A stretch of DNA of 16,580 bases, from NCBI GenBank assembly GCA_048882385.1, contig JBHLRQ010000073.1, positions 1-16,580 on the forward strand, written 5' to 3'. The translations under genes and the position numbers were made by a program. The DNA comes from Candidatus Thorarchaeota archaeon (GTDB taxonomy: Archaea > Asgardarchaeota > Thorarchaeia > Thorarchaeales > Thorarchaeaceae). This document shows, in pieces, positions 1,005-8,657 of the stretch. The notes under the pieces were generated by a model, which saw nothing but the letters and a program-made list of their open reading frames with translations, ran no database searches and was not told the origin of the DNA. Numbering within the stretch: position 1 is the stretch's first letter; every line of letters begins with the position of its first letter.

Positions 1005-1451
1005 CTAGCTCTTCTTTGGTTCAAGCTTCTGAACAGCACGTGCAGGATTTCCTGCGACCATTGTCAAAGGAGGGACATCCTTACTCACCACCGCGCCTGC
1101 AGCAACAATTGCCCCTTCTCCAACAGTGACTCCTGGAAGAATAATAGATCCAGCTGCCAGCCACGCACCCTTTCCAATCACCACTTTCTTTGGGCCTTCA
1201 TGAAAGATCTTCCTTTTCTGATGATAAGGACTTGCACCTGAGTGAGCCATCAGTTTTACACCCGGTCCTATGCTTGCCCAATCTCCTATCTCAATATACT
1301 CCGGATACTCACCATCCACTAAGACCTGAAATCCCATGTAAACCCCTTTTCCTATCTTGACACCACATTTTCGGTACACACTTGCTCTGAATTGGTATGA
1401 TGGTGCCAACCAAGCAAGAATTCGTAAGAATCTTCCAAGCAGTTTACCCAT
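1005..1451 (-). CDS. Hexapeptide-repeat (left-handed beta-helix) acyltransferase, maltose/galactoside O-acetyltransferase-like
   Basis: GVKIGKGVY, IEIGDWASIGPGV, VVIGKGAWLAAGSIILPGVTVGEGAIVAAGAVVSKDVPP...GNPAR. Confidence 0.93.
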   Translation of the reverse strand: MGKLLGRFLRILAWLAPSYQFRASVYRKCGVKIGKGVYMGFQVLVDGEYPEYIEIGDWASIGPGVKLMAHSGASPYHQKRKIFHEGPKKVVIGKGAWLAAGSIILPGVTVGEGAIVAAGAVVSKDVPPLTMVAGNPARAVQKLEPKKS

Positions 1452-1457
1452 ATCTCA

Positions 1458-2435
1458 TCACCTTGCTCCTCTTCTCCATAAGACTCTCCTCAGGTAGTCT
1501 GAGAACACCCAATTGTCGATATCTCCAGTAAGAAGAAGACAGAATGTACTGTCACCTCTCCATTTGCCATGAGTATTCCAGTATTTCACTGCCTCTGTTG
1601 GAGTTGTGCACCACGCTCCAAGACTATGAGCGTGTTGTGTGACATCCTTTAGGCACTGTGAAAACTCAGATTGCCCCATTCTGATAGGGTGCAGATCAAA
1701 CATTATGACTCCATTTGTCTGAGCTGCGTTACTCACTTCTTTATTTAGCGCTCTTGTAACATCCTTTGGCCCCATCCCTAGTCTGTCAATCATCAGATCG
1801 TCACTTTGGATGTTTAGAGGTATATACGTGACCTTGGACTCTTGTCCATCAAAATCTGTATGGAAAAATTGAGTCTTCTCACGGTGTTCTGGTCTGTATC
1901 CGAACCCGCCATCCCAAAGAAGTCCTACTTGCTCCAATAGGAGCGGCATATCATCTGTATAGTTATCGTATGGTGCTCTGAATCCTGAAATATCAATCCC
2001 TAAATTCTTGAATACTTGAAGGCTAAGTCTAAGATCCTTCTCTCTCTCTTTGGCTGAAAGGGTGGGGTATCGTACGTGATTGTATCCGTGACTAGCGACT
2101 TCATGTCCTTCATCCGTAATCATCTTTACAAGCTCAGGCTTCATTTTGGCTACTGATGCGACTGTAGGAAATGCAAATCGACCATTTGCTTCATCAAGAG
2201 CCGAGAACATGTTTTGCAGTATTGTAGTGAATGGAGTCCGGTGAAGTTTCAGCATACGAAACAGCTGTCGAGGAGCTCTCAAACCCCATCTTCTGCTCAG
2301 CTGCCCAACATAGTTTTGTCCGAACACAGTTTCCACCATTTCTGTAATAGGTTCTGTCTTATGCGACTCTTTCAAAAGGATTCCGACCGCCATCATAAAT
2401 CGCGCACTCATGGGAACACTTATCGAAGAAGTCAA
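1458..2435 (-). CDS. Polysaccharide deacetylase (CE4/NodB family)
   Basis: GHEVASHGYNH (HxxxH metal motif), GFRAPY, VIMFDLHP. The motif-1-like LLTGDID lies near the C-terminus. TTG start is preceded by GAGG; a later ATG start is possible. Confidence 0.88.
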   Translation of the reverse strand: MTSSISVPMSARFMMAVGILLKESHKTEPITEMVETVFGQNYVGQLSRRWGLRAPRQLFRMLKLHRTPFTTILQNMFSALDEANGRFAFPTVASVAKMKPELVKMITDEGHEVASHGYNHVRYPTLSAKEREKDLRLSLQVFKNLGIDISGFRAPYDNYTDDMPLLLEQVGLLWDGGFGYRPEHREKTQFFHTDFDGQESKVTYIPLNIQSDDLMIDRLGMGPKDVTRALNKEVSNAAQTNGVIMFDLHPIRMGQSEFSQCLKDVTQHAHSLGAWCTTPTEAVKYWNTHGKWRGDSTFCLLLTGDIDNWVFSDYLRRVLWRRGAR

Positions 2436-2470
2436 ACCTCTTTCTGCTATCTTAGAAATCAGGTGAGAAG

Positions 2471-2875
2471 ATGAAGCTGAGTCATATTGGAATCCTTGTG
2501 ACAGATATCGAAGCAGGCATCAAGAATCATGAGAAACTGTTTGGATACAAACAGATAGGTCCCATTGTTGATGACCCAGTTCAGAAGGTTAGAGTTGTTC
2601 TTATGGGAATCTCGGAAACAGACCCAGTTAAGATTGAGCTCATCTCTCCTCTTTCTGATGACTCTCCAGTTGCTGATCTTCTAAAAAAACGACAGTCACT
2701 ATACCATCTGTGCTATGCTGTGTCTGATATTGAAGCAGCTAAAAAGAAAGCTCGAGAGAATGGAGCTGTCATCATTTCACAGCCAGTAGAAGCTCCGCTC
2801 TTCGATGGTCGAAAAATCTGCTTTCTTTTCACTCGAGACCATTATGTAATTGAATTGGTGGAAGGAGATCATTGA
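2471..2875 (+). CDS. VOC/glyoxalase family protein (methylmalonyl-CoA epimerase-like)
   Basis: LSHIGILV, KIELISP, LYHLCYAVSDIE, VIELVE metal-ligand pattern. SD AGGTGA at 2461-2466. Confidence 0.9.
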   Translation: MKLSHIGILVTDIEAGIKNHEKLFGYKQIGPIVDDPVQKVRVVLMGISETDPVKIELISPLSDDSPVADLLKKRQSLYHLCYAVSDIEAAKKKARENGAVIISQPVEAPLFDGRKICFLFTRDHYVIELVEGDH

Positions 2876-2914
2876 ATCACGATCTCGCTAGTGCAATAAT
2901 TGCTCTAGGACTAG

Positions 2915-3859
2915 TTATTCACTTCTCACTCCACTATCTACCACAAATACCTTGGAGAATAGATCGAACAATGGTTCAACATAGCTGATATTCATCTTTG
3001 AGTAGACGAAGTTACACATGTCAATGAACCTGTCTGCCCTTTCATCCGCATATTCCTCTATTCCGATGATCTTCTTCGTTCTTTTTGCTAGGTCTCTCAC
3101 AAGTCCCCTTGCACCTTTGTCTTCTGCAAAGAGTTCAGTTGCTTCTTGTTCAACTCTTTTCAGTTGACTCTTTACGCGTATATCGGATACATCATCTGCT
3201 CCAAAGCTCTTGACAACATCCATTAGAACATCCAGGACACCATTATGAAGTCCTGCAACCAAAGCTTCGATTTCATAAGCGGTAAAACGTACGGTTGTAC
3301 CATCTTCTGTGAGCTGCCATTTTAGGTCGCTACTTCTGCTCACAGTTATCTTTCGTTGACCTATGACAATCATCTCGTCGAAGAACCTGGAGTCTATACT
3401 ACTTCGTAATGCTGTCTTGATAATGGCAGCCTCTGGAAGCTTGACCCGTATTGAATTCCCTCCATTTGTGATGACCAAACACAGGCCATTTGAAGGTTGT
3501 ATCTTTTTCACATAATCCGACGGTGGTGCCACTTCTACAGGGGGTAGATGTTTCAGCTTTTCAGCCAGCTCTCGGACTTCAGCTTCTGAGCAGATGTAGG
3601 TTTGTCTGTCTCCAGAGATTGAGATAGTGCCATCATCTGCTCTTTCGAAATCTATTCTGTTTCCACCACCCACATCTGTAGTTTTATGGTATGTTTGCTT
3701 ATAGCTACGTGCTGTTTGCGCAAGTTTCTCTAATGCTGCGGATATCATATGGGCTTCTCCATATCCCATAGTAATCTCTGCGTTCCCCTCGGTTCCGCGG
3801 CCAATACCAAGGGCTCCATCCTGTCTTATCTTGACGTACATAACCAGCCACCGAGTCAT
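2915..3859 (-). CDS. Hypothetical protein with four internal ~40-aa beta-beta-beta-alpha repeats and a helical C-terminal region
   Basis: 314-aa ORF; ATG 3841 (MYVKIRQ) is an alternative start. Repeats are visible by eye; no catalytic motif recognised. Confidence 0.8.
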   Translation of the reverse strand: MTRWLVMYVKIRQDGALGIGRGTEGNAEITMGYGEAHMISAALEKLAQTARSYKQTYHKTTDVGGGNRIDFERADDGTISISGDRQTYICSEAEVRELAEKLKHLPPVEVAPPSDYVKKIQPSNGLCLVITNGGNSIRVKLPEAAIIKTALRSSIDSRFFDEMIVIGQRKITVSRSSDLKWQLTEDGTTVRFTAYEIEALVAGLHNGVLDVLMDVVKSFGADDVSDIRVKSQLKRVEQEATELFAEDKGARGLVRDLAKRTKKIIGIEEYADERADRFIDMCNFVYSKMNISYVEPLFDLFSKVFVVDSGVRSE

Positions 3860-3953
3860 GAATGTGAGTCTTTTGTTGAAAACTTTTCTGGAGTTTCTTC
3901 AGACATATCCGAAATGTCAAAAGAACAGGAACTACCTCATAATTTGACCAATC

Positions 3954-4127
3954 ATGGCTGAAGATGAGATTTGTGAAATCACCCTCATATTACATGATCT
4001 TTCTGATGACAGGATTGTATGTCCTTTCAGTGAAGGTAGATGGAAAAAGGTAGGTGATGCTCTTATTCTCTTCATGCTCGTTGGAATGCCTATTCTCTAT
4101 CTAATTGCTATTTTGATGACTATTTAG
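3954..4127 (+). CDS. Putative 57-aa small membrane protein with one C-terminal TM helix
   Basis: MAEDEICEITLILHDLSDDRIVCPFSEGRWKKVGDALILFMLVGMPILYLIAILMTI*. Fills an otherwise empty gap and ends 20 nt before a strong hairpin. Shorter than any ORF in the supplied track. Confidence 0.6.
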   Translation: MAEDEICEITLILHDLSDDRIVCPFSEGRWKKVGDALILFMLVGMPILYLIAILMTI

Positions 4128-4147
4128 AACTAAAATGTGCAGAATTG

Positions 4148-4175
4148 TATGCAGGAGGCGTAACGCCTCTGCATA
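4148..4175. terminator. GC-rich hairpin between convergent genes, possible bidirectional terminator or 3' stabiliser
   Basis: TATGCAGGAGGCG-TAA-CGCCTCTGCATA: 12-bp stem with a one-nt bulge, between the stops at 4127 (+) and 4183 (-). Confidence 0.5.
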
Positions 4176-4182
4176 ATCGATT

Positions 4183-4542
4183 CTAGATTGAATCTGTAAC
4201 ATCGAAAGCTAGAGTACCTGCTTCCTTTGTTTTTAGAGAGAGGTCTATCTTGTGTTCTCCTTCTGAAAGAGGCTCTCCCTTTACGATGAGTTCAATCTCT
4301 ACTCCAACTTTTATCGGAAAGGTATTTTCTTCACTTATATCAGACCCTAGGATTTCAATACCTTCAGATCTAATAGTCAGGTCGTCAAGACTATACTCAT
4401 TTCCATCCACCTTTATTGGTGCCACCGCTGTTGTAGTACCTGGTGATAGTGAGTTCTTCAGTTTTAACATAAAGCCGCCTTCGACGTTTTCGAGGCTCCC
4501 TTTGATGTAGAGTTTTCTAAGTAAGAACGCTGGAATTTGCAT
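4183..4542 (-). CDS. Conserved-looking hypothetical small beta-rich protein
   Basis: 119 aa, MQIPAFLLRKLYIKGSLENVEGGFMLKLKN..., with an alternating beta-strand pattern. GGAGG and a TATA-like CTTATAAAA lie upstream on the minus strand. Confidence 0.8.
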   Translation of the reverse strand: MQIPAFLLRKLYIKGSLENVEGGFMLKLKNSLSPGTTTAVAPIKVDGNEYSLDDLTIRSEGIEILGSDISEENTFPIKVGVEIELIVKGEPLSEGEHKIDLSLKTKEAGTLAFDVTDSI

Positions 4543-4591
4543 TTGTCATTTAGCCTCCACTAATACTGAGACAGCCAGCAAACTTGTGAAT

Positions 4592-4647
4592 CTTTTATAA
4601 GTTCCGAAGTAGAGCCACGACTATTTTTTGGTCACAAAATGTATAAG
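4592..4647. promoter_or_regulatory. Candidate back-to-back archaeal TATA boxes for the divergent 119-aa and 122-aa genes
   Basis: CTTTTATAAG at 4592-4601 and CAAAATGTATAAG at 4635-4647, each roughly 50 nt from the nearest start codon. Confidence 0.4.
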
Positions 4648-4697
4648 CCATCATGATTCGTCTGAGCATGAAACACACAGCATAAGGAGAGAAATGG

Positions 4698-5066
4698 TTG
4701 CAGTTTGATTTCTTCGACATTTTTGGTGACATCTTTGGAACATTCTCAATAATGATCATACTTATTCCCATAATCATGGTGGTTGTTGTTGTCATAATCG
4801 TGTTTACTGTGTGCAGAGCTGGATCCAGTGTGGCTACACAGGTAGCTCGAGGTTTTACTATTGAGGCACCTTCTTTTGTAATTCCTGAGAGACATCGTGG
4901 TCATCAGCGATCTGATGGTTCCGAGATAAGAACAGTCAGACTACCTGAAAGGTGTCCGTCATGTGGTGCAGCATTGTCTCATGAAGGAATTGACTGGACT
5001 GGACCCCTTGAGGCTAAATGTAATTATTGCGGAGGTACTGTCAGAGCCAATTTTGAACGTGTCTGA
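4698..5066 (+). CDS. Membrane-anchored zinc-ribbon protein
   Basis: Long N-terminal hydrophobic segment (IMIILIPIIMVVVVVIIVFTVC) and C-terminal CPSC...CNYC. TTG start after AGGAG. Confidence 0.8.
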   Translation: MQFDFFDIFGDIFGTFSIMIILIPIIMVVVVVIIVFTVCRAGSSVATQVARGFTIEAPSFVIPERHRGHQRSDGSEIRTVRLPERCPSCGAALSHEGIDWTGPLEAKCNYCGGTVRANFERV

Positions 5067-5214
5067 TAACCTACTATCCCGCCAATGCTTAGATAATACA
5101 ATCACACTTAGTTTATCAAATCAAGTTCGTATCAGTTAATGGTACCGAGATTGAACATTGGGTAAAGTATTTCAAAGATATATCACAAACAAATGCTTCA
5201 AGAGGATTAACTAC

Positions 5215-5490
5215 ATGGTCGAAGCTCTGGAGATGCAGGAGGATGGGACTACTCTGGATGTAGACTTGACAGAAGAAAGTCTTCAAGCTGACCGTGTTTT
5301 CTGTGTAGTTGATGATACAAACAAGAATGTCTACATCTGGCTGGGCAAAGAAGCAAATGTACGAAAACGGTTTGTTGGAGCTCAGACAGCAAGCAAAATT
5401 CGAGGAGAACTCAGTACGGGGTTCAGGGTCCGTTCGCTGGACCAAGGAGATGAACCTGTAGCTTTTTTCAACTCCTTGAAACGTGACTAG
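5215..5490 (+). CDS. Single-domain gelsolin/villin-family protein (Asgard ProGel-like)
   Basis: SLQADRVFCVVDDTNKNVYIWLGKEANVRKRFVGAQTASKIRGE...VRSLDQGDEPVAFFNSL fits the gelsolin-domain pattern (IYxWxG, long helix, V..QG.EP..F). ATG 5215 after GAGGA is preferred to TTG 5158. Confidence 0.85.
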   Translation: MVEALEMQEDGTTLDVDLTEESLQADRVFCVVDDTNKNVYIWLGKEANVRKRFVGAQTASKIRGELSTGFRVRSLDQGDEPVAFFNSLKRD

Positions 5491-5552
5491 ATACTAGCTA
5501 TTCCGTAACATTATATAGCACACTAGGCTACGAACGTTGAGAGGTCAATAGT

Positions 5553-6596
5553 GTGAGAGGATTGATGAAAACCGCTCGTGGGGTTGGGAATCTTGAGCTG
5601 AAGGAGATTGAAAGACCAACACCAATGGGGGATGAAGTCCTAATCGAAGTAGCTGCAGCTGGTATTTGTGGAACTGACATTCACATCAAGCATGATCAGG
5701 CTTTCTACAACCCTCCTGTTGTCCTTGGGCATGAATATTCTGGAAAGGTGGTTGAAATTGGAGGTGACGTGACATCTGTAACGGTAGGTGATCCTGTTGT
5801 TTCTCCAGCAACTGCTTATTGTGGTAAATGTCATCAATGTAAAACTGGGCATATGAATAGATGTACAGCAACCGACAAGAGAATTCTTGGAACATCCAAT
5901 GCCAATGGAGCTTTCGCGAAGTACCTGATTGTACCCGATTATATAGTACATAAAGTACCAACGAAAGTATCAATGGAAGAGGCAGCACTTGCTGAACCCT
6001 TTGCATGTGTTGTACACTCGGTGATTGACAAGACTCCAATTTGTCCCGGTGATGTCGTAGTTGTTCAAGGACCTGGAACTATGGGCTTAATGGCAACTCA
6101 AGTCGCTAAGTCAATGGGAGCAGGAAAGGTCATAGTTACTGGTGTGACTGCTGATGAATGGCGCTTTGATATCGCAAAGAAAATTGGTGCTGACATGACT
6201 ATTGATGTACAGAGTGAATCTGACCCGGTTGGAATTGTCAATGCTGAAACTGATGGTCGAGGTGCTGATGCAGTCATCGAGGCGTCTGGAGCCTGCGTGG
6301 CTTGTACACAGGCTTTGGACTTTGTAAAAGTGGCTGGACATGTTACACTTCTGGGGGTTCGAGGCCAACCAGCAAACATCGATCTTGATCCAATCATCAC
6401 TAAAGAACTCACCATGTCTGGAACTTGGGGGACTCTGCCATCTTCTTGGGTGACAACACTTAGGCTCCTGTCTTCGCGTAAAGTAGATGTTACACCACTC
6501 ATCACTCATAGAATCAAACTCTCAGAATGGGAAAAAGGGTTTGATCTGATGGAAAGCCAAAAAGCAATCAAGGTTCTCTTCACTAGTTTTGAGTGA
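5553..6596 (+). CDS. Zn-dependent medium-chain dehydrogenase (sorbitol/threonine dehydrogenase-like)
   Basis: GICGTD, LGHEYSG, structural Zn CGKCHQC...C, LAEP, GPGTMG nucleotide-binding motif. Confidence 0.95.
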   Translation: MRGLMKTARGVGNLELKEIERPTPMGDEVLIEVAAAGICGTDIHIKHDQAFYNPPVVLGHEYSGKVVEIGGDVTSVTVGDPVVSPATAYCGKCHQCKTGHMNRCTATDKRILGTSNANGAFAKYLIVPDYIVHKVPTKVSMEEAALAEPFACVVHSVIDKTPICPGDVVVVQGPGTMGLMATQVAKSMGAGKVIVTGVTADEWRFDIAKKIGADMTIDVQSESDPVGIVNAETDGRGADAVIEASGACVACTQALDFVKVAGHVTLLGVRGQPANIDLDPIITKELTMSGTWGTLPSSWVTTLRLLSSRKVDVTPLITHRIKLSEWEKGFDLMESQKAIKVLFTSFE

Positions 6597-6961
6597 ATCT
6601 GGATGGTGCACTTATGTTCCTAACAAAGGATATTGACTCTGAAGAATATCCAATCTATAATCAGCCTGGTATGAAAGGTGTACGACGAAGACCACTTCTC
6701 AATCCTGACAATTCCTCGAAGAACTTTGCAATTCGCATGTACACCATCGAATCCGGTGGACACACATCGTACGATATTCATCCACACGAACACGGAGTGT
6801 ACATATTCAGTGGGGAAGTAACAGTTAAGATTGGAGAGCAGGAATTACTTCTACACACTGGAAATGTTCTCCATATAGGTGGTAATGAACCCCATCAGTT
6901 CTTCAACCACGGAACAGAACTCGTGAAATTTCTGTGTGTGCGAAACTTTACTACTGTCTAG
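6593..6961 (+). CDS. Cupin-2 domain protein
   Basis: HPHEHGVYIFSGE...GNEPHQFFN metal-binding motifs. GTGA overlap with the dehydrogenase stop; ATG 6614 is an alternative start. Confidence 0.9.
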   Translation: MNLDGALMFLTKDIDSEEYPIYNQPGMKGVRRRPLLNPDNSSKNFAIRMYTIESGGHTSYDIHPHEHGVYIFSGEVTVKIGEQELLLHTGNVLHIGGNEPHQFFNHGTELVKFLCVRNFTTV

Positions 6962-7316
6962 GCGCCCAAGCATCAAGACAATCTTGAATTGTTGCTATAT
7001 GGGAAGCAGCAGGACCCCCACCCATCACTATTGCAACAGAACAAGCCTCCATGATCTCTTCTCTGGTAGCACCCAATGAAAGGGCTTGTTTGGTGTGATA
7101 TACCATGCATTCCTCACATGGTGAAAGAATTGATGCAACTATACACATCATCTCCTTTACCTTCGCAGAGAGAGCACCATCCTTGTGTACCGCCTTCTGT
7201 AAGTCGGTAAATGCATTTCTCACATCAGGGATATCCCTGTTGAGTGCTCCAAAATGTTTCATGAAGCTCTTTAGGGTCTTCTCAACTTCGTCAGTTGTCA
7301 TTAAATCATTCCTCAT
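6951..7316 (-). CDS. Carboxymuconolactone decarboxylase/AhpD family protein with CxxC
   Basis: DGALSAKVKEMM...PCEECMVYH...ALSLGATREEIMEA...MGGGP. ATG 7301 after GAGGA is a likely start. Overlaps the convergent cupin stop by 11 nt. Confidence 0.92.
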   Translation of the reverse strand: MRNDLMTTDEVEKTLKSFMKHFGALNRDIPDVRNAFTDLQKAVHKDGALSAKVKEMMCIVASILSPCEECMVYHTKQALSLGATREEIMEACSVAIVMGGGPAASHIATIQDCLDAWAPRQ

Positions 7317-7326
7317 GTTGAGAGGT

Positions 7327-8121
7327 TCATGGGACTGGTGTCCCCAGATTCCATGTTGGCTTTGAATAGCGGCTCTGATATAAAACCTGTGAAGTGTCCT
7401 TCTCCTCCTTAGTTAGCTGGCCAATCTTCGATGATCTTCCTGATACTGACTCAATGCTCTCTACAATCGCCTGTTTAATTTGATCTAGCTCTGGACAGTT
7501 GTCTATTTCATTAGAGATGTTCGTCACTACATCTCTCTTACTCTCTGTGCATCTGATTCGAAACCGGTCACGGAGATATTTCGGCTGATTCTTTGGTGGG
7601 TTCAAGCTCTCTCTTAGGGAGGTCAAGTCTGAGCATACTAATAATGTGCCATGTAGGAAGGCAACACCACGTTTGAGCCATCCTGCAGTTCCAGTTATTT
7701 TGAGTTCACCAATTCTTATACATGATCGAATAGGGTCATAATTTGCAGGGATACCAATGGATTGTAAACCAGCTGCGACTGAACCAATAAATCTCTCATA
7801 GATTTCTTTCAATGTTCTTGGCACAAATCTTTCCATCTTATTAACACAGATTGAAAAGTTAAGATTACCCTGGTCATGATAGACTGTGCCGCCACCAGTG
7901 AATCGCCTGGCAATTGCGATTCCGTTCTTTCTACAGAAATCAAGATTGACTTCTTCATGTACGCATTGAAATCGCCCAATCACCACTGCCCTATCAGATT
8001 TCCAAAAACGAAGTGTGTTCTCCTTTTCTTCTTGTTTGGACATAGTCCTAGCTAGACTCTCATCTATTGAGAGATTCCGAAAAACATCAAGGTCGATCTC
8101 TTCAATGATTCGCCAGGACAT
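7327..8121 (-). CDS. lplA: Lipoate-protein ligase A, catalytic domain only
   Basis: TLRFW, VVIGRFQ, RRFTGGGTVYHDQGNLNFS, KITG, HGTLL; ends at YSKPTWNLG. Confidence 0.9.
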   Translation of the reverse strand: MSWRIIEEIDLDVFRNLSIDESLARTMSKQEEKENTLRFWKSDRAVVIGRFQCVHEEVNLDFCRKNGIAIARRFTGGGTVYHDQGNLNFSICVNKMERFVPRTLKEIYERFIGSVAAGLQSIGIPANYDPIRSCIRIGELKITGTAGWLKRGVAFLHGTLLVCSDLTSLRESLNPPKNQPKYLRDRFRIRCTESKRDVVTNISNEIDNCPELDQIKQAIVESIESVSGRSSKIGQLTKEEKDTSQVLYQSRYSKPTWNLGTPVP

Positions 8122-8175
8122 GAATCAATCACTCTTCTATGACCTTAGCAACAATCATTGATTAGCTTGTTGTTA

Positions 8176-8317
8176 GCCGGTGGATAAATTAGGTTGCTCT
8201 CCACCGGCGGGAGGCCCCAGAGCAACGGTTGAGGCTTGGAGCAGATGTCGTATTCGAGGCTGACACGAAATGATACGTGTCGAGATTCGGTCTGCTCTCT
8301 TCAATATAAGGTCCCCC
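8176..8317 (+). ncRNA. Putative structured non-coding RNA of unrecognised family (H-type pseudoknot plus branched stem-loop)
   Basis: GCCGGTGGA(8176-84)/TCCACCGGC(8200-08) interleaved with GTTGCTCT(8193-8200)/AGAGCAAC(8219-26). Also TTGAGG/CTTCAA, GGAGCAGAT/GTCTGCTCT and TGACACG/CGTGTCG. Strand inferred only from G-U wobbles. Confidence 0.55.
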
Positions 8318-8336
8318 TGATAATTAGAGCCGAAAT

Positions 8337-8657
8337 TCATGCTAGGTATTGACCACATTCATGACATGAAATGGAGCCAGGTTTCAGCTTTGTCCCGCAA
8401 TATGGACATTCTATCCTAGTGGCTTGCTGGTCGAAAGGTTGAGAATCTAGAACAAATCTTCCGGAGGCGTTGATATTCTTGAGTCCTATTGCGTCTGCAT
8501 AGAATTCTGTGAATCCACAATCTGCGCATGTGAAACTCTCTAGTGTTGCAGACGAAAATCCCGGTAAGTCAATTCTAATATGGTGTTGTCCGTAGACTCG
8601 GTGAGGTCCAGCTATTCTGGTTCCTCTACATTTAGGGCATGTTTTTGTACGAATCAT
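8337..8657 (-). CDS. Double zinc-ribbon protein
   Basis: CPKC...CADCGFTEFYA and CPYCG...CHECG. GAGAGGGAG directly upstream of the ATG. Confidence 0.85.
   Translation of the reverse strand: MIRTKTCPKCRGTRIAGPHRVYGQHHIRIDLPGFSSATLESFTCADCGFTEFYADAIGLKNINASGRFVLDSQPFDQQATRIECPYCGTKLKPGSISCHECGQYLA

What the first reader, a model, noticed from the sequence alone, without database searches (positions are those of the whole stretch)
8145..8320. Unrecognised pseudoknotted RNA-like element inside the lipoyl/2-oxoacid dehydrogenase block
Seen: the 215-nt gap between the Zn-ribbon gene and lplA is more GC-rich than other spacers here and is largely base-pairable. It holds an H-type pseudoknot with two perfect Watson-Crick stems that compete for T8200: S1 GCCGGTGGA/TCCACCGGC (9 bp) and S2 GTTGCTCT/AGAGCAAC (8 bp), with an 8-nt loop 1 and no loop 2. 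Next comes a long stem (TTGAGG 8229-34/CTTCAA 8299-8304; GGAGCAGAT 8238-46/GTCTGCTCT 8290-98) closing a junction with two inner hairpins (TCG-TATT-CGA; TGACACG/CGTGTCG). Loop 3 GGGAGGCC (8209-16) can pair 7/8 with GGTCCCCC (8310-17), giving a second knot. A further 10-bp hairpin lies at 8145-8176. Most non-canonical pairs are G-U on the + strand, antisense to both neighbours. I could not fit it to tRNA, 5S, SRP, RNase P, HDV, hammerhead, twister, pistol, glmS or a SECIS. Inference: a new archaeal ncRNA, ribozyme or cis-regulator of lplA-ahpD. The long stem ends in TTCAA, as some IS200/IS605 right ends do, so an orphan TnpB omega-RNA/MITE remnant is an alternative.
Basis: partly seen in the sequence, partly recalled or inferred. 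Interest (0 to 1): 0.85.

Follow-up and report, generated by a model that had tools for sequence, protein, structure and literature searches.

The report
Conserved small RNA gene beside lplA
The gap between two metabolic genes holds a well-conserved, previously undescribed small folded RNA gene that was found only in one class of Asgard archaea, and its job is still unknown.

Summary
No Rfam 15 family matches. The core is window 8173-8284 (-). A TATA-like box (8303-8311) sits 28-30 nt before hairpin P1 in 59 of 65 homologues. Covariation supports P1-P3. Wobble pairs number 36 G.U against 1 A.C on the minus strand. The loop-loop helix has one compensatory change. A covariance model finds one copy per genome in 65 of 87 genomes of the class, and none in 124 genomes of 26 other families. 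Relatives are titled Thorarchaeota. The RNA usually sits 39-140 nt upstream of lplA. One genus keeps it without lplA or E2, and five genera have lplA with no full homologue upstream. I therefore read it as an independent small RNA gene. In two relatives a TnpB-carrying insertion interrupts the gene and restores it.

The parts
8173..8284 (-). Core of the small RNA: P1, single strand, P2, P3
   Evidence: Full-length match to model R1 (123.7 bits). Fold z = -4.38. Single copy in this genome.
8303..8311 (-). TATA-box-like promoter element (CCTTATATT on the minus strand). The inferred transcription start is about 8282-8285.
   Evidence: A CTTAWAT-type motif starts 28-30 nt before the first P1 pair in 59 of 65 homologues, 31-34 nt in 5, and is absent in 1. 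The start site is inferred from the usual archaeal TATA-to-start spacing (recalled), not measured.
8262..8281 (-). Hairpin P1 (GACACG 8281-8276 / CGUGUC 8267-8262, 8-nt loop)
   Evidence: 5 of 6 pairs show changes on both sides in 65 sequences. RNAalifold predicts it independently.
8236..8261 (-). Nearly invariant single strand AGCCUCGAAUACGACAUCUGCUCCAA. The blocks CCUCGA and GACAUCUGCUC are invariant in 28-29 sequences.
   Evidence: Invariant columns. It is unpaired in the consensus apart from an invariant 3-bp UCG/CGA hairpin. A 19-nt stretch of it (8233-8251) stands again behind tnpB in two relatives.
8214..8235 (-). Hairpin P2 (GCCUCA 8235-8230 / UGGGGC 8219-8214, 10-nt loop)
   Evidence: 6 of 6 pairs show changes on both sides in 65 sequences. 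P2 is absent in three genera.
8176..8208 (-).
   Evidence: 7 of 9 pairs show changes on both sides and 99.3% of cells are paired.
8220..8226 (-).
   Evidence: Pairs with 8193-8199. 100% paired in 40 distinct sequences, 6 pairs invariant, 1 pair U-A to C-G in L199.
8193..8199 (-). P3-loop half of the loop-loop helix (GAGCAAC)
   Evidence: As above. Both halves occur only in the genus-type sequences and are missing together elsewhere.
8159..8172 (-). Genus-specific conserved motif CAACAAGCUAAUCA between P3 and lplA. It may be the lplA promoter.
   Evidence: Conserved block. It lies 33-47 nt before the lplA ATG. Its role is inferred only.
7327..8121 (-). lplA (lipoate-protein ligase catalytic domain), the downstream neighbour
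   Evidence: PF21948 E = 9e-47.
8337..8657 (-). 106-aa double Zn-ribbon protein, the upstream neighbour. It is not a TnpB remnant.
   Evidence: Two CxxC...CxxC ribbons. The PF07282 hit is below cut-off with no passing stretch. The protein is conserved at about 100 aa across the class. Its stop codon varies between TGA, TAA and TAG among relatives.

Best explanation
Window 8173-8284 (minus strand) is the gene of a structured small non-coding RNA of about 110 nt. The family is restricted, as far as searched, to one class of Asgard archaea (Thorarchaeota by the record titles of relatives).

It is transcribed from its own archaeal TATA-type promoter (8303-8311), starting just before hairpin P1. 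The RNA folds into three hairpins. In this genus the loops of P2 and P3 pair with each other over 7 bp and lock the 3' half into a compact body. That leaves a nearly invariant 26-nt strand exposed between P1 and P2.

I infer that this exposed strand is the working part, either as a base-pairing seed or as a protein-binding site. C/U-rich CCUCC-like stretches, found in a loop or joiner of most homologues, may belong to it too. I also infer that the RNA acts as an independent, probably trans-acting molecule, and is not an obligatory leader of lplA.

Shown: conservation, strand, fold, promoter-like motif at fixed spacing, copy number, distribution, and uncoupling from lplA. Inferred: transcription itself, the two ends, and the mode of action.
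For: No known family matches: Rfam at gathering cut-offs on the window and E<=10 on 8000-8500 give 0 hits, and there is no tRNA.

Conservation exceeds that of the flanking genes. The element is 74-90% identical in nucleotides in 23 of 24 congeners, while LplA is 57-73% identical in amino acids.

Fold. On a MAFFT alignment of 29 sequences, 96.3% of cells pair and 16 pairs change on both sides, against 3.4 in shuffles (0 of 500). Slid controls give 32-46% paired. RNAalifold finds P1, P2 and P3 on its own. On 65 model-aligned sequences, 97.8% pair and 18 of 21 pairs change on both sides.

Strand: 36 G.U against 1 A.C. Fold z is -4.38 on the minus strand against -2.13 on the plus strand.

Not coding: 1- and 2-nt indels occur between conserved blocks.

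Promoter: the TATA-like motif sits at fixed spacing in 64 of 65.

Copy number and range. There is one copy per genome in 65 of 87 genomes of the class, spread over 10 of 17 genera. Two hits occur only where the locus is split or duplicated. There are 0 hits in 124 genomes of 26 other families of the phylum. 31 further copies lie on metagenome contigs with the same synteny.

Independence from lplA. All 4 genomes of genus g23 keep promoter, P1, single strand and P3. In the two loci read in detail (L055, L103) a convergent gene follows the RNA. Their best lplA match is 25-32% identical, and E2 was not found with this query. In G050 the RNA and lplA lie on different contigs. In 4 of 5 genera checked that lacked a hit (g16, g18, g21, g27), lplA has no homologue upstream; in g24 only a diverged one was found.

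Selection on the gene. In two relatives a mobile insertion in the gene brings its own promoter and P1, so that a full-length copy is kept (114.4 and 112.3 bits).
Against: There is no expression data: no RNA run was listed. Promoter, start and 3' end are therefore inferred.

Only 20 of 65 homologues have a run of four or more T within 40 nt after P3 (7 have five or more). The window has none before lplA. Here transcription could run on into lplA, which would make the RNA a 5' leader.

In 56 of 64 relatives' loci lplA follows on the same strand, and in 52 of them it follows after only 39-140 nt.

No target was found. The complement of the single strand has no match within 3 mismatches (23-mer) in the genome. 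14-mer matches with up to 2 mismatches fall in ordinary coding sequence. Complementarity to a relative's 16S and 23S rRNA is no better than for shuffles.

The loop-loop helix rests on a single compensatory event and is not conserved outside the genus. The 'invariant' strand is replaced in the diverged g24 homologue.

Kin are not independent, and the 65-sequence alignment was fitted to the model.
Confidence: 0.55

Rival explanations
1. It is a cis-acting 5' leader (riboswitch or attenuator-like) of the lplA-ahpD transcript. The pseudoknotted fold would sense a signal and control read-through or translation of lplA.
For: lplA follows on the same strand in 56 of 64 relatives' loci, in 52 of them after 39-140 nt. 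The same holds in 27 of 31 metagenome copies. The window has no T-run between P3 and lplA, and only 20 of 65 homologues have a T4+ run after P3. GCCUCG in the single strand could compete with GCCUCA (P2) for UGAGGC, which would give an alternative pairing; this was read from the sequence and not tested.
Against: The RNA is kept in 4 of 4 g23 genomes. In the two loci read in detail a convergent gene follows it, and orthologous lplA and E2 were not found in the genus. lplA has no such element upstream in g16, g18, g21 and g27. In G050 the two lie on different contigs. The gap is 285-697 nt in 4 loci. Several genera have T5-6 runs right after P3, followed by a second TATA-like box before lplA. 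No pairing with the lplA ribosome-binding site or start is conserved (read). No riboswitch family matches.
Confidence: 0.25
2. It is a DNA-level element without RNA function: a recombination or attachment site, or an operator, kept for protein binding.
For: Three kinds of insertion hit the locus. One is the TnpB-linked insertion after ...GCCTCGAATACGAC in G013 and G016. The others are a 1.6-kb and a 2.9-kb insertion after P3, the 1.6-kb one flanked by a 26-nt direct repeat. The most conserved block is not base-paired.
Against: The strand asymmetry of wobble pairs (36 G.U against 1 A.C) and the compensatory changes in three helices are not expected for a duplex DNA site. A promoter-like motif sits at fixed spacing.
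Confidence: 0.06
3. It is an orphan TnpB omega-RNA, an IS200/IS605 right end or a MITE remnant.
For: The upstream Zn-ribbon ORF gives a near-threshold PF07282 hit (26.2 bits against a cut-off of 26.3). A 19-nt stretch of the element equals the sequence that follows tnpB in G013 and G016.
Against: The element is single-copy in the genome by BLAST and by model. The Zn-ribbon protein is a conserved small protein of about 100 aa with two ribbons and no RuvC part. Neither the BLAST of the gap nor model R1 matched the genome's own TnpB locus on C94; its 3' region was read. The element has its own promoter-like motif, and synteny is conserved over a whole class. In G013 and G016 the shared 19-mer sits where the guide would be, so the host gene would be the target and not the scaffold.
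Confidence: 0.03
4. It is a plus-strand RNA antisense to the operon.
For: S1, S2 and P1 also form on the plus strand. The plus-strand fold has z = -2.13.
Against: 36 cells are G.U on the minus strand, which are A-C mismatches on the plus strand, against 1 the other way. The plus-strand-only helices (long stem, 8145 hairpin) are not conserved. The conserved TATA-like motif is placed for minus-strand transcription.
Confidence: 0.03

Closest known systems
Trans-encoded regulatory small RNAs with an unpaired seed and C-rich, anti-Shine-Dalgarno-like loops (for example RsaE/RoxS of Firmicutes; recalled, not tested)
   Same: Small size, apparently its own promoter, stable hairpins flanking a highly conserved unpaired stretch, and C/U-rich CCUCC-like motifs in loops or joiners. 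One copy per genome.
   Different: No sequence or model similarity to any Rfam family. It is archaeal. No target was identified. It has an intramolecular loop-loop helix.
Pseudoknotted riboswitch leaders (H-type knots such as the preQ1 and SAM-II classes; recalled)
   Same: A knotted fold lying just upstream of a metabolic gene on the same strand.
   Different: The knot is a kissing contact between two hairpin loops and is genus-specific. The RNA persists without the gene, and the gene persists without the RNA. No expression platform was found.
TnpB omega-RNA / IS200-IS605 right end
   Same: 19 nt of the invariant strand are identical to the stretch right behind the conserved 3' end of the tnpB-linked scaffold in two relatives.
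   Different: The window's element is single-copy, has no adjacent tnpB and has no scaffold similarity. It matches the guide or target, not the scaffold.
tRNA and tmRNA genes as insertion sites of integrative elements that rebuild the gene (established knowledge, recalled)
   Same: In G013 and G016 the inserted DNA carries its own copy of part of the RNA gene, so an intact gene remains.
   Different: The 5' part, including the promoter, is replaced, not the 3' part. No integrase was recognised. The only gene shared by the two insertions is a TnpB-family nuclease.

Membership tests
Any Rfam 15 family (including ribozymes, riboswitches, SRP, RNase P, 5S, snoRNA-like, SECIS) | A covariance-model match at or near the family's gathering score | tested here: not met
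   0 matches at gathering on the whole window. 0 matches at E<=10 on 8000-8500, both strands.
tRNA / tmRNA | Cloverleaf detected by ARAGORN | tested here: not met
   0 genes in the window.
Riboswitch / cis-regulatory leader of lplA | Always lies in the 5' leader of the regulated gene | tested here: not met
   56 of 64 loci have lplA downstream. But 4 of 4 g23 genomes keep the RNA without orthologous lplA. In G050 the two are on different contigs. lplA has no element upstream in g16, g18, g21 and g27.
Riboswitch / cis-regulatory leader of lplA | An expression platform: a regulated terminator, or sequestration of the ribosome-binding site | tested here: inconclusive
   T4+ runs follow P3 in 20 of 65. 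No conserved pairing with the lplA start region was seen. No dedicated search was run.
Riboswitch / cis-regulatory leader of lplA | Binds a ligand | not testable with these tools
   Needs in-line probing or ITC.
TnpB omega-RNA / IS200-IS605 end | Overlaps or directly follows a tnpB gene | tested here: not met
   The upstream ORF is a 106-aa double Zn ribbon with no RuvC part. Its PF07282 hit is below cut-off with no passing stretch.
TnpB omega-RNA / IS200-IS605 end | Several copies per genome, or similarity to the scaffold of resident TnpB loci | tested here: not met
   Single copy by BLAST and by model. Neither search matched the resident TnpB locus C94, whose 3' region was read.
MITE | Multicopy, with terminal inverted repeats and a target-site duplication | tested here: not met
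   Single copy. Syntenic across a class.
SECIS element | Serves an in-frame UGA in a neighbouring gene | tested here: not met
   E2, the Zn-ribbon gene, lplA and ahpD are open without an internal TGA. The Zn-ribbon stop varies between TGA, TAA and TAG among relatives. No Rfam SECIS hit.
Independent archaeal small RNA gene | Its own promoter (TATA box about 25-30 nt before the start) | tested here: met
   The motif is at fixed spacing in 64 of 65. Function as a promoter is inferred.
Independent archaeal small RNA gene | A discrete transcript with a defined 3' end | not testable with these tools
   No RNA run was listed. T-runs follow P3 in only 20 of 65.
Independent archaeal small RNA gene | Kept independently of the neighbouring genes | tested here: met
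   g23 and G050.
   S1: 7 of 9 pairs change on both sides. S2: 100% paired, with one compensatory change, in the genus-type sequences only. It is a loop-loop helix between P2 and P3.

The most novel reading that the evidence does not exclude
This RNA gene is the dedicated homing site of a TnpB-based mobile element. In two species the gene is interrupted at exactly the same base. The inserted DNA ends with a TnpB-family nuclease gene. Its 3' scaffold is followed, at the position where a paralogue's sequence becomes unrelated, by a 19-nt perfect copy of the RNA's invariant strand. That position and length would fit a hard-wired guide against the empty site. Next comes a replacement promoter plus P1 that rebuilds a full-length RNA gene. 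A 3-nt ACA insertion in the rebuilt copy changes the bases just 5' of the target, which might protect the occupied allele. If this is right, an RNA-guided nuclease drives site-specific spread into an important non-coding RNA gene and repairs that gene as it goes.
Probability: 0.3. Interest if true: 0.8.

Novelty: new member of a known kind. Interest (0 to 1): 0.6.

Why it matters
Very few non-coding RNAs other than rRNA, tRNA, SRP RNA, RNase P RNA and guide RNAs are described for Asgard archaea. My literature searches found nothing on this one. This is a single-copy, class-wide RNA with a clear fold, an apparent promoter and an almost invariant exposed strand. It is a concrete and easily synthesised object for finding an Asgard-specific RNA-protein or RNA-RNA interaction. 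Its model (R1/R2) can serve as a marker for Thorarchaeota contigs. The linked TnpB insertion, if confirmed, would give a natural example of a guide-bearing element targeting and restoring an RNA gene. It would also give a testable target-plus-flank pair for an Asgard TnpB.

Tried and rejected
Known families: Rfam at gathering and at E<=10, and ARAGORN, found nothing.

Selenoprotein/SECIS idea. It was raised by weak NCBIfam hits of the Zn-ribbon protein and AhpD to (seleno)protein families. I rejected it because reading TGA as Sec adds only a short tail, the ribbons are complete, and the stop codon varies among relatives.

TnpB remnant idea for the Zn-ribbon ORF: rejected.

Small ORF 8173-8358 (61 aa, minus strand): no Pfam hit, and 1-2-nt indels among relatives break any frame.

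Trans target search. The 23-mer complement with up to 3 mismatches hits only itself. The 14-mer with up to 2 mismatches hits ordinary coding sequence. rRNA genes were not found in this genome. Against a relative's 16S and 23S, the longest complementary run was 8-9 nt, no better than shuffles.

Loop-loop contacts outside the genus: none better than shuffles in a consistent way.

Viral contigs with the core pattern: 3 stretches. All are weak by the model (18.7 bits or less) with GC 0.61-0.65, so I take them as chance.

Metagenome scan for the tnpB-guide junction: 0 stretches.

Expression: no RNA holder was listed.

Cargo of the G013 insertion: the 399-, 414- and 568-aa ORFs have no convincing family. 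No integrase, TnpA or Cas1 was recognised.

A paper on TnpB diversity (PMC10691335; passages read with 'find' only) describes Asgard-linked TnpB groups with a hypervariable stretch before a GTTCACTCA motif. Here GTTCACTCA lies about 33 nt before the 19-mer, so the arrangement differs and the guide assignment stays tentative. Supplements of that paper were not seen.

Literature searches gave listings only. One search was badly framed (any 2 of 5 terms) and says nothing.
Full report
WHAT IS THERE. The 215-nt gap 8122-8336 lies between a 106-aa double Zn-ribbon gene (8337-8657) and lplA (7327-8121). Both are on the minus strand, inside a block E1alpha-E1beta-E2-ZnR-[gap]-lplA-ahpD. The gap is richer in G+C (0.49-0.51) than the E2/ZnR spacer (0.33). 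No Rfam 15 family matches, either at gathering cut-offs on the window or at E<=10 on 8000-8500. ARAGORN finds no tRNA. The stretch occurs once in its genome.

CONSERVATION. A DNA search found the element in 23 of 24 other genomes of the genus at 74-90% identity, and in 0 of 16 genomes of other families drawn from the phylum. It is syntenic between ZnR (or E2) and lplA. It is better conserved in nucleotides than LplA (57-73%) or ZnR (54-78%) are in amino acids. Between the conserved blocks there are 1- and 2-nt indels. The overlapping 61-aa ORF is therefore not a gene.

STRAND AND FOLD. The mismatches in S1 on the plus strand are A-C, which read as G.U on the minus strand.

On the minus strand the order is as follows:
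- a TATA-like box CCTTATATT (8311-8303);
- a variable spacer;
- hairpin P1 (8281-8276/8267-8262);
- a nearly invariant strand AGCCUCGAAUACGACAUCUGCUCCAA (8261-8236);
- hairpin P2 (8235-8230/8219-8214);
- a 5-nt joiner CUCCC;

Seven bases of the P2 loop (GUUGCUC, 8226-8220) pair with seven of the P3 loop (GAGCAAC, 8199-8193).

On a MAFFT alignment of 29 sequences the four helices are 96.3% paired. 16 pairs change on both sides, against 3.4 in shuffles (0 of 500), and slid controls give 32-46% paired. RNAalifold finds P1, P2 and P3 by itself, plus an invariant 3-bp UCG/CGA hairpin. The 112-nt core folds with z = -4.38 on the minus strand and -2.13 on the plus strand.

The long stem is 54.0% paired against 54.1% in shuffles. 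The second knot is 72.6% against 71.2%. The 8145-8176 hairpin is 48.0% against 51.4%. The 5' arm of the 'long stem' is the invariant strand. Its supposed partner lies in the variable spacer between the TATA box and P1, which is probably not transcribed.

DISTRIBUTION. A covariance model built from 28 sequences (R1) finds the RNA in 65 of 86 genomes of the family, in 10 of 16 genera. There is one hit per genome, except in three genomes where the locus is split or duplicated. The class holds these 86 genomes plus one other, which has no hit. A broader model (R2) hits 18 of 26 family genomes and 0 of 124 genomes of 26 other families of the phylum. 'Not found' in incomplete genomes is not absence.

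On the 65 model-aligned sequences, 97.8% of cells pair and 18 of 21 pairs change on both sides. That alignment leans towards the model, and kin are not independent. Record titles of the closest lplA homologues read Candidatus Thorarchaeota, with a few reading Promethearchaeota, Hermodarchaeota or archaeon.

A pattern scan of metagenome contigs gave 80 loci, of which 31 are true by R2 (55 bits or more). In 27 of the 31, lplA follows within 140 nt. One of these, L199, has GUUGCCC/GGGCAAC where all others have GUUGCUC/GAGCAAC. This is a compensatory U-A to C-G change in the loop-loop helix, which is otherwise invariant and 100% paired in 40 distinct sequences. Outside the genus this contact is not conserved, and P2 is missing altogether in g23, g28 and g15.

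PROMOTER AND ENDS. A CTTAWAT-type motif starts 28-30 nt before the first P1 pair in 59 of 65 homologues, 31-34 nt in 5, and is missing in 1. With the usual archaeal spacing (recalled), the start would fall 0-3 nt before P1. The 3' end is less clear. Several genera have T5-6 runs just after P3, followed by a second TATA-like box before lplA. But only 20 of 65 have a T4+ run within 40 nt, and the window has none. No RNA run was listed for this locus, so none of this is measured.

LEADER OR INDEPENDENT GENE? In 56 of 64 relatives' loci lplA follows on the same strand. The gap is 39-140 nt in 52 of them and 285-697 nt in 4. Of the 8 loci without lplA, 2 are cut by a contig end, 1 carries an insertion, 4 are g23 and 1 is G050.

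Against an obligatory leader:
- All 4 g23 genomes keep promoter, P1, strand and P3, and none of their four loci has lplA or E2 within 2 kb. In the two read in detail (L055, L103) a convergent gelsolin-like gene follows the RNA; in L103 a polyprenyl synthase lies upstream.
- In g23 the best lplA match is 25-32% identical, and E2 was not found with my query. The genomes are 83-93% complete.
- In G050 the RNA and lplA are on different contigs.
- In five genera without a model hit, lplA is present. In g16, g18, g21 and g27 no RNA was found upstream. In g24 there is only a diverged version that keeps promoter, P1, a P2-like stem and P3 but lacks GACAUCUGCUC.

I therefore favour an independent small RNA (0.55) over a leader (0.25).

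HOW IT MIGHT WORK (inferred). P1 and the P2/P3 body frame an exposed, nearly invariant strand. Most homologues also carry a C/U-rich CCUCC-like stretch in a loop or joiner. This layout is what base-pairing regulators and protein-binding RNAs look like. I found no target.

A TnpB ELEMENT TARGETS THE GENE IN TWO RELATIVES. In G013 the match is split. Promoter, P1 and GCCTCGAATACGAC are followed by 6.4 kb of foreign DNA (L057 1431-7822). This DNA ends in a 447-aa ORF of the TnpB family:
- PF07282, E = 6e-15;
- NF040570, E = 1e-27, 97.4 bits against a cut-off of 100;
- TnpB and Cas12f structures, E about 2e-9.

Eleven bases after its stop comes ACGACATCTGCTCCAAGCC, identical to 19 nt of the invariant strand. 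Then comes a diverged second promoter plus P1 plus GCCTCGAATACA, and then the rest of the gene. The rebuilt gene scores 114.4 bits. G016 has the same right side and the same left junction, but different cargo.

Between the two genomes the figures are as follows:
- TnpB is 81.9% identical;
- the last 400 nt of tnpB are 87.8% identical;
- the 19-mer plus replacement segment is 87.1% identical;
- the adjoining host part of the RNA is 74.7% identical;
- lplA is 68.0% identical in nucleotides and 63.3% in amino acids.

So TnpB, the 19-mer and the replacement 5' half behave as one unit that is younger than its surroundings.

The window's own genome has a 47%-identical TnpB on contig C94. Its 3' scaffold aligns with the G013 one up to ...GGTCWT and then diverges, which is where the 19-mer starts. 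That placement fits a guide. It is not proven, and it differs from the arrangement described for Asgard Cas1-linked TnpBs in PMC10691335 (passages read). No integrase or TnpA was recognised.

VERDICT. The finding is a real, new, class-restricted structured RNA gene. The strand and the larger architecture are wrong.

Noticed in passing
L057 (G013:C21:41500-50500) 1431-7953; L059 (G016:C8) 72-1518; L046 (G016:C33) 1577 onward: A TnpB-family gene sits at the right end of an insertion in the RNA gene. It is followed by a 19-nt copy of the RNA's invariant strand and by a replacement promoter plus P1 that rebuilds the gene. The left junction is the same in both genomes, but the cargo differs. The module is more alike between the two genomes (82-88%) than the flanking host DNA (68-75%).
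   Followed up: partly
Own genome contig C94:9723-11300 (from /data/genome.fa): A TnpB homologue, 47% identical to the G013 one. The last part of its 3' scaffold (...AGCAGGTCAT) occurs twice, 87 nt apart, and each copy is followed by unrelated sequence. This may be a remnant of an earlier insertion at the same place.
   Followed up: partly
L060 (G011:C346) 1514-3119; L149 and L168 (metagenome contigs): A 1.6-kb (G011) or 2.9-kb (L149, L168) insertion lies between P3 and lplA. In G011 it is flanked by a 26-nt direct repeat (TGATTTATCCACCGGCTAACAACA.G) and holds a 255-aa membrane-protein ORF. No transposase was seen.
   Followed up: partly
L263 (G065:C3) 1270-1440: A diverged homologue in genus g24. 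The TATA-like box, P1, AAUCGAAUAC, a 9-bp P2-like stem and P3 with a CCUCCCUCC loop are kept. The GACAUCUGCUC block is absent. It scores only 16.4 bits.
   Followed up: partly
A4 rows L122, L090-L093, L096 (genus g25); window 8220-8235: The 5' arm and loop of P2 resemble the invariant strand (CCUCG-ACAUCUGCUC in g25; GCCUCA-ACCGUUGCUC in the window). P2 may have arisen by tandem duplication of that strand.
   Followed up: no
Window 8337-8657 (-): The Zn-ribbon protein gives a weak hit to NCBIfam 'zinc ribbon-containing (seleno)protein DG' (E = 6e-5, 23 bits against a cut-off of 130) and ends in TGA. Relatives end in TAA or TAG, so this is a plain stop. Some relatives carry two tandem paralogues of this gene (L032, L034, L050).
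   Followed up: partly
L058 (G020:C119) and L023 (G020:C152): One genome bin holds two copies of the E2-RNA-lplA-ahpD stretch on two short contigs (2662 and 1818 nt). One copy lacks the Zn-ribbon gene. Strain mixture in the bin is the likely cause.
   Followed up: no
L103 2211-2477 (-), L055 1031-1423 (+): In genus g23 the RNA gene is followed by a convergent small gene whose product looks gelsolin-like by eye (...VYLWKGS...). No family search was run on it.
   Followed up: no
Window 8159-8172 (-) and equivalents: A conserved 14-15-nt motif, CAACA(A/G)(G/A)(C/T)TAAT(C/G)AG, lies 33-47 nt before the lplA ATG in the genus. In genus g25 a different box (GTTTAAGG/GTTTAATG) occupies the corresponding place. 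These are probably the lplA promoters.
   Followed up: no
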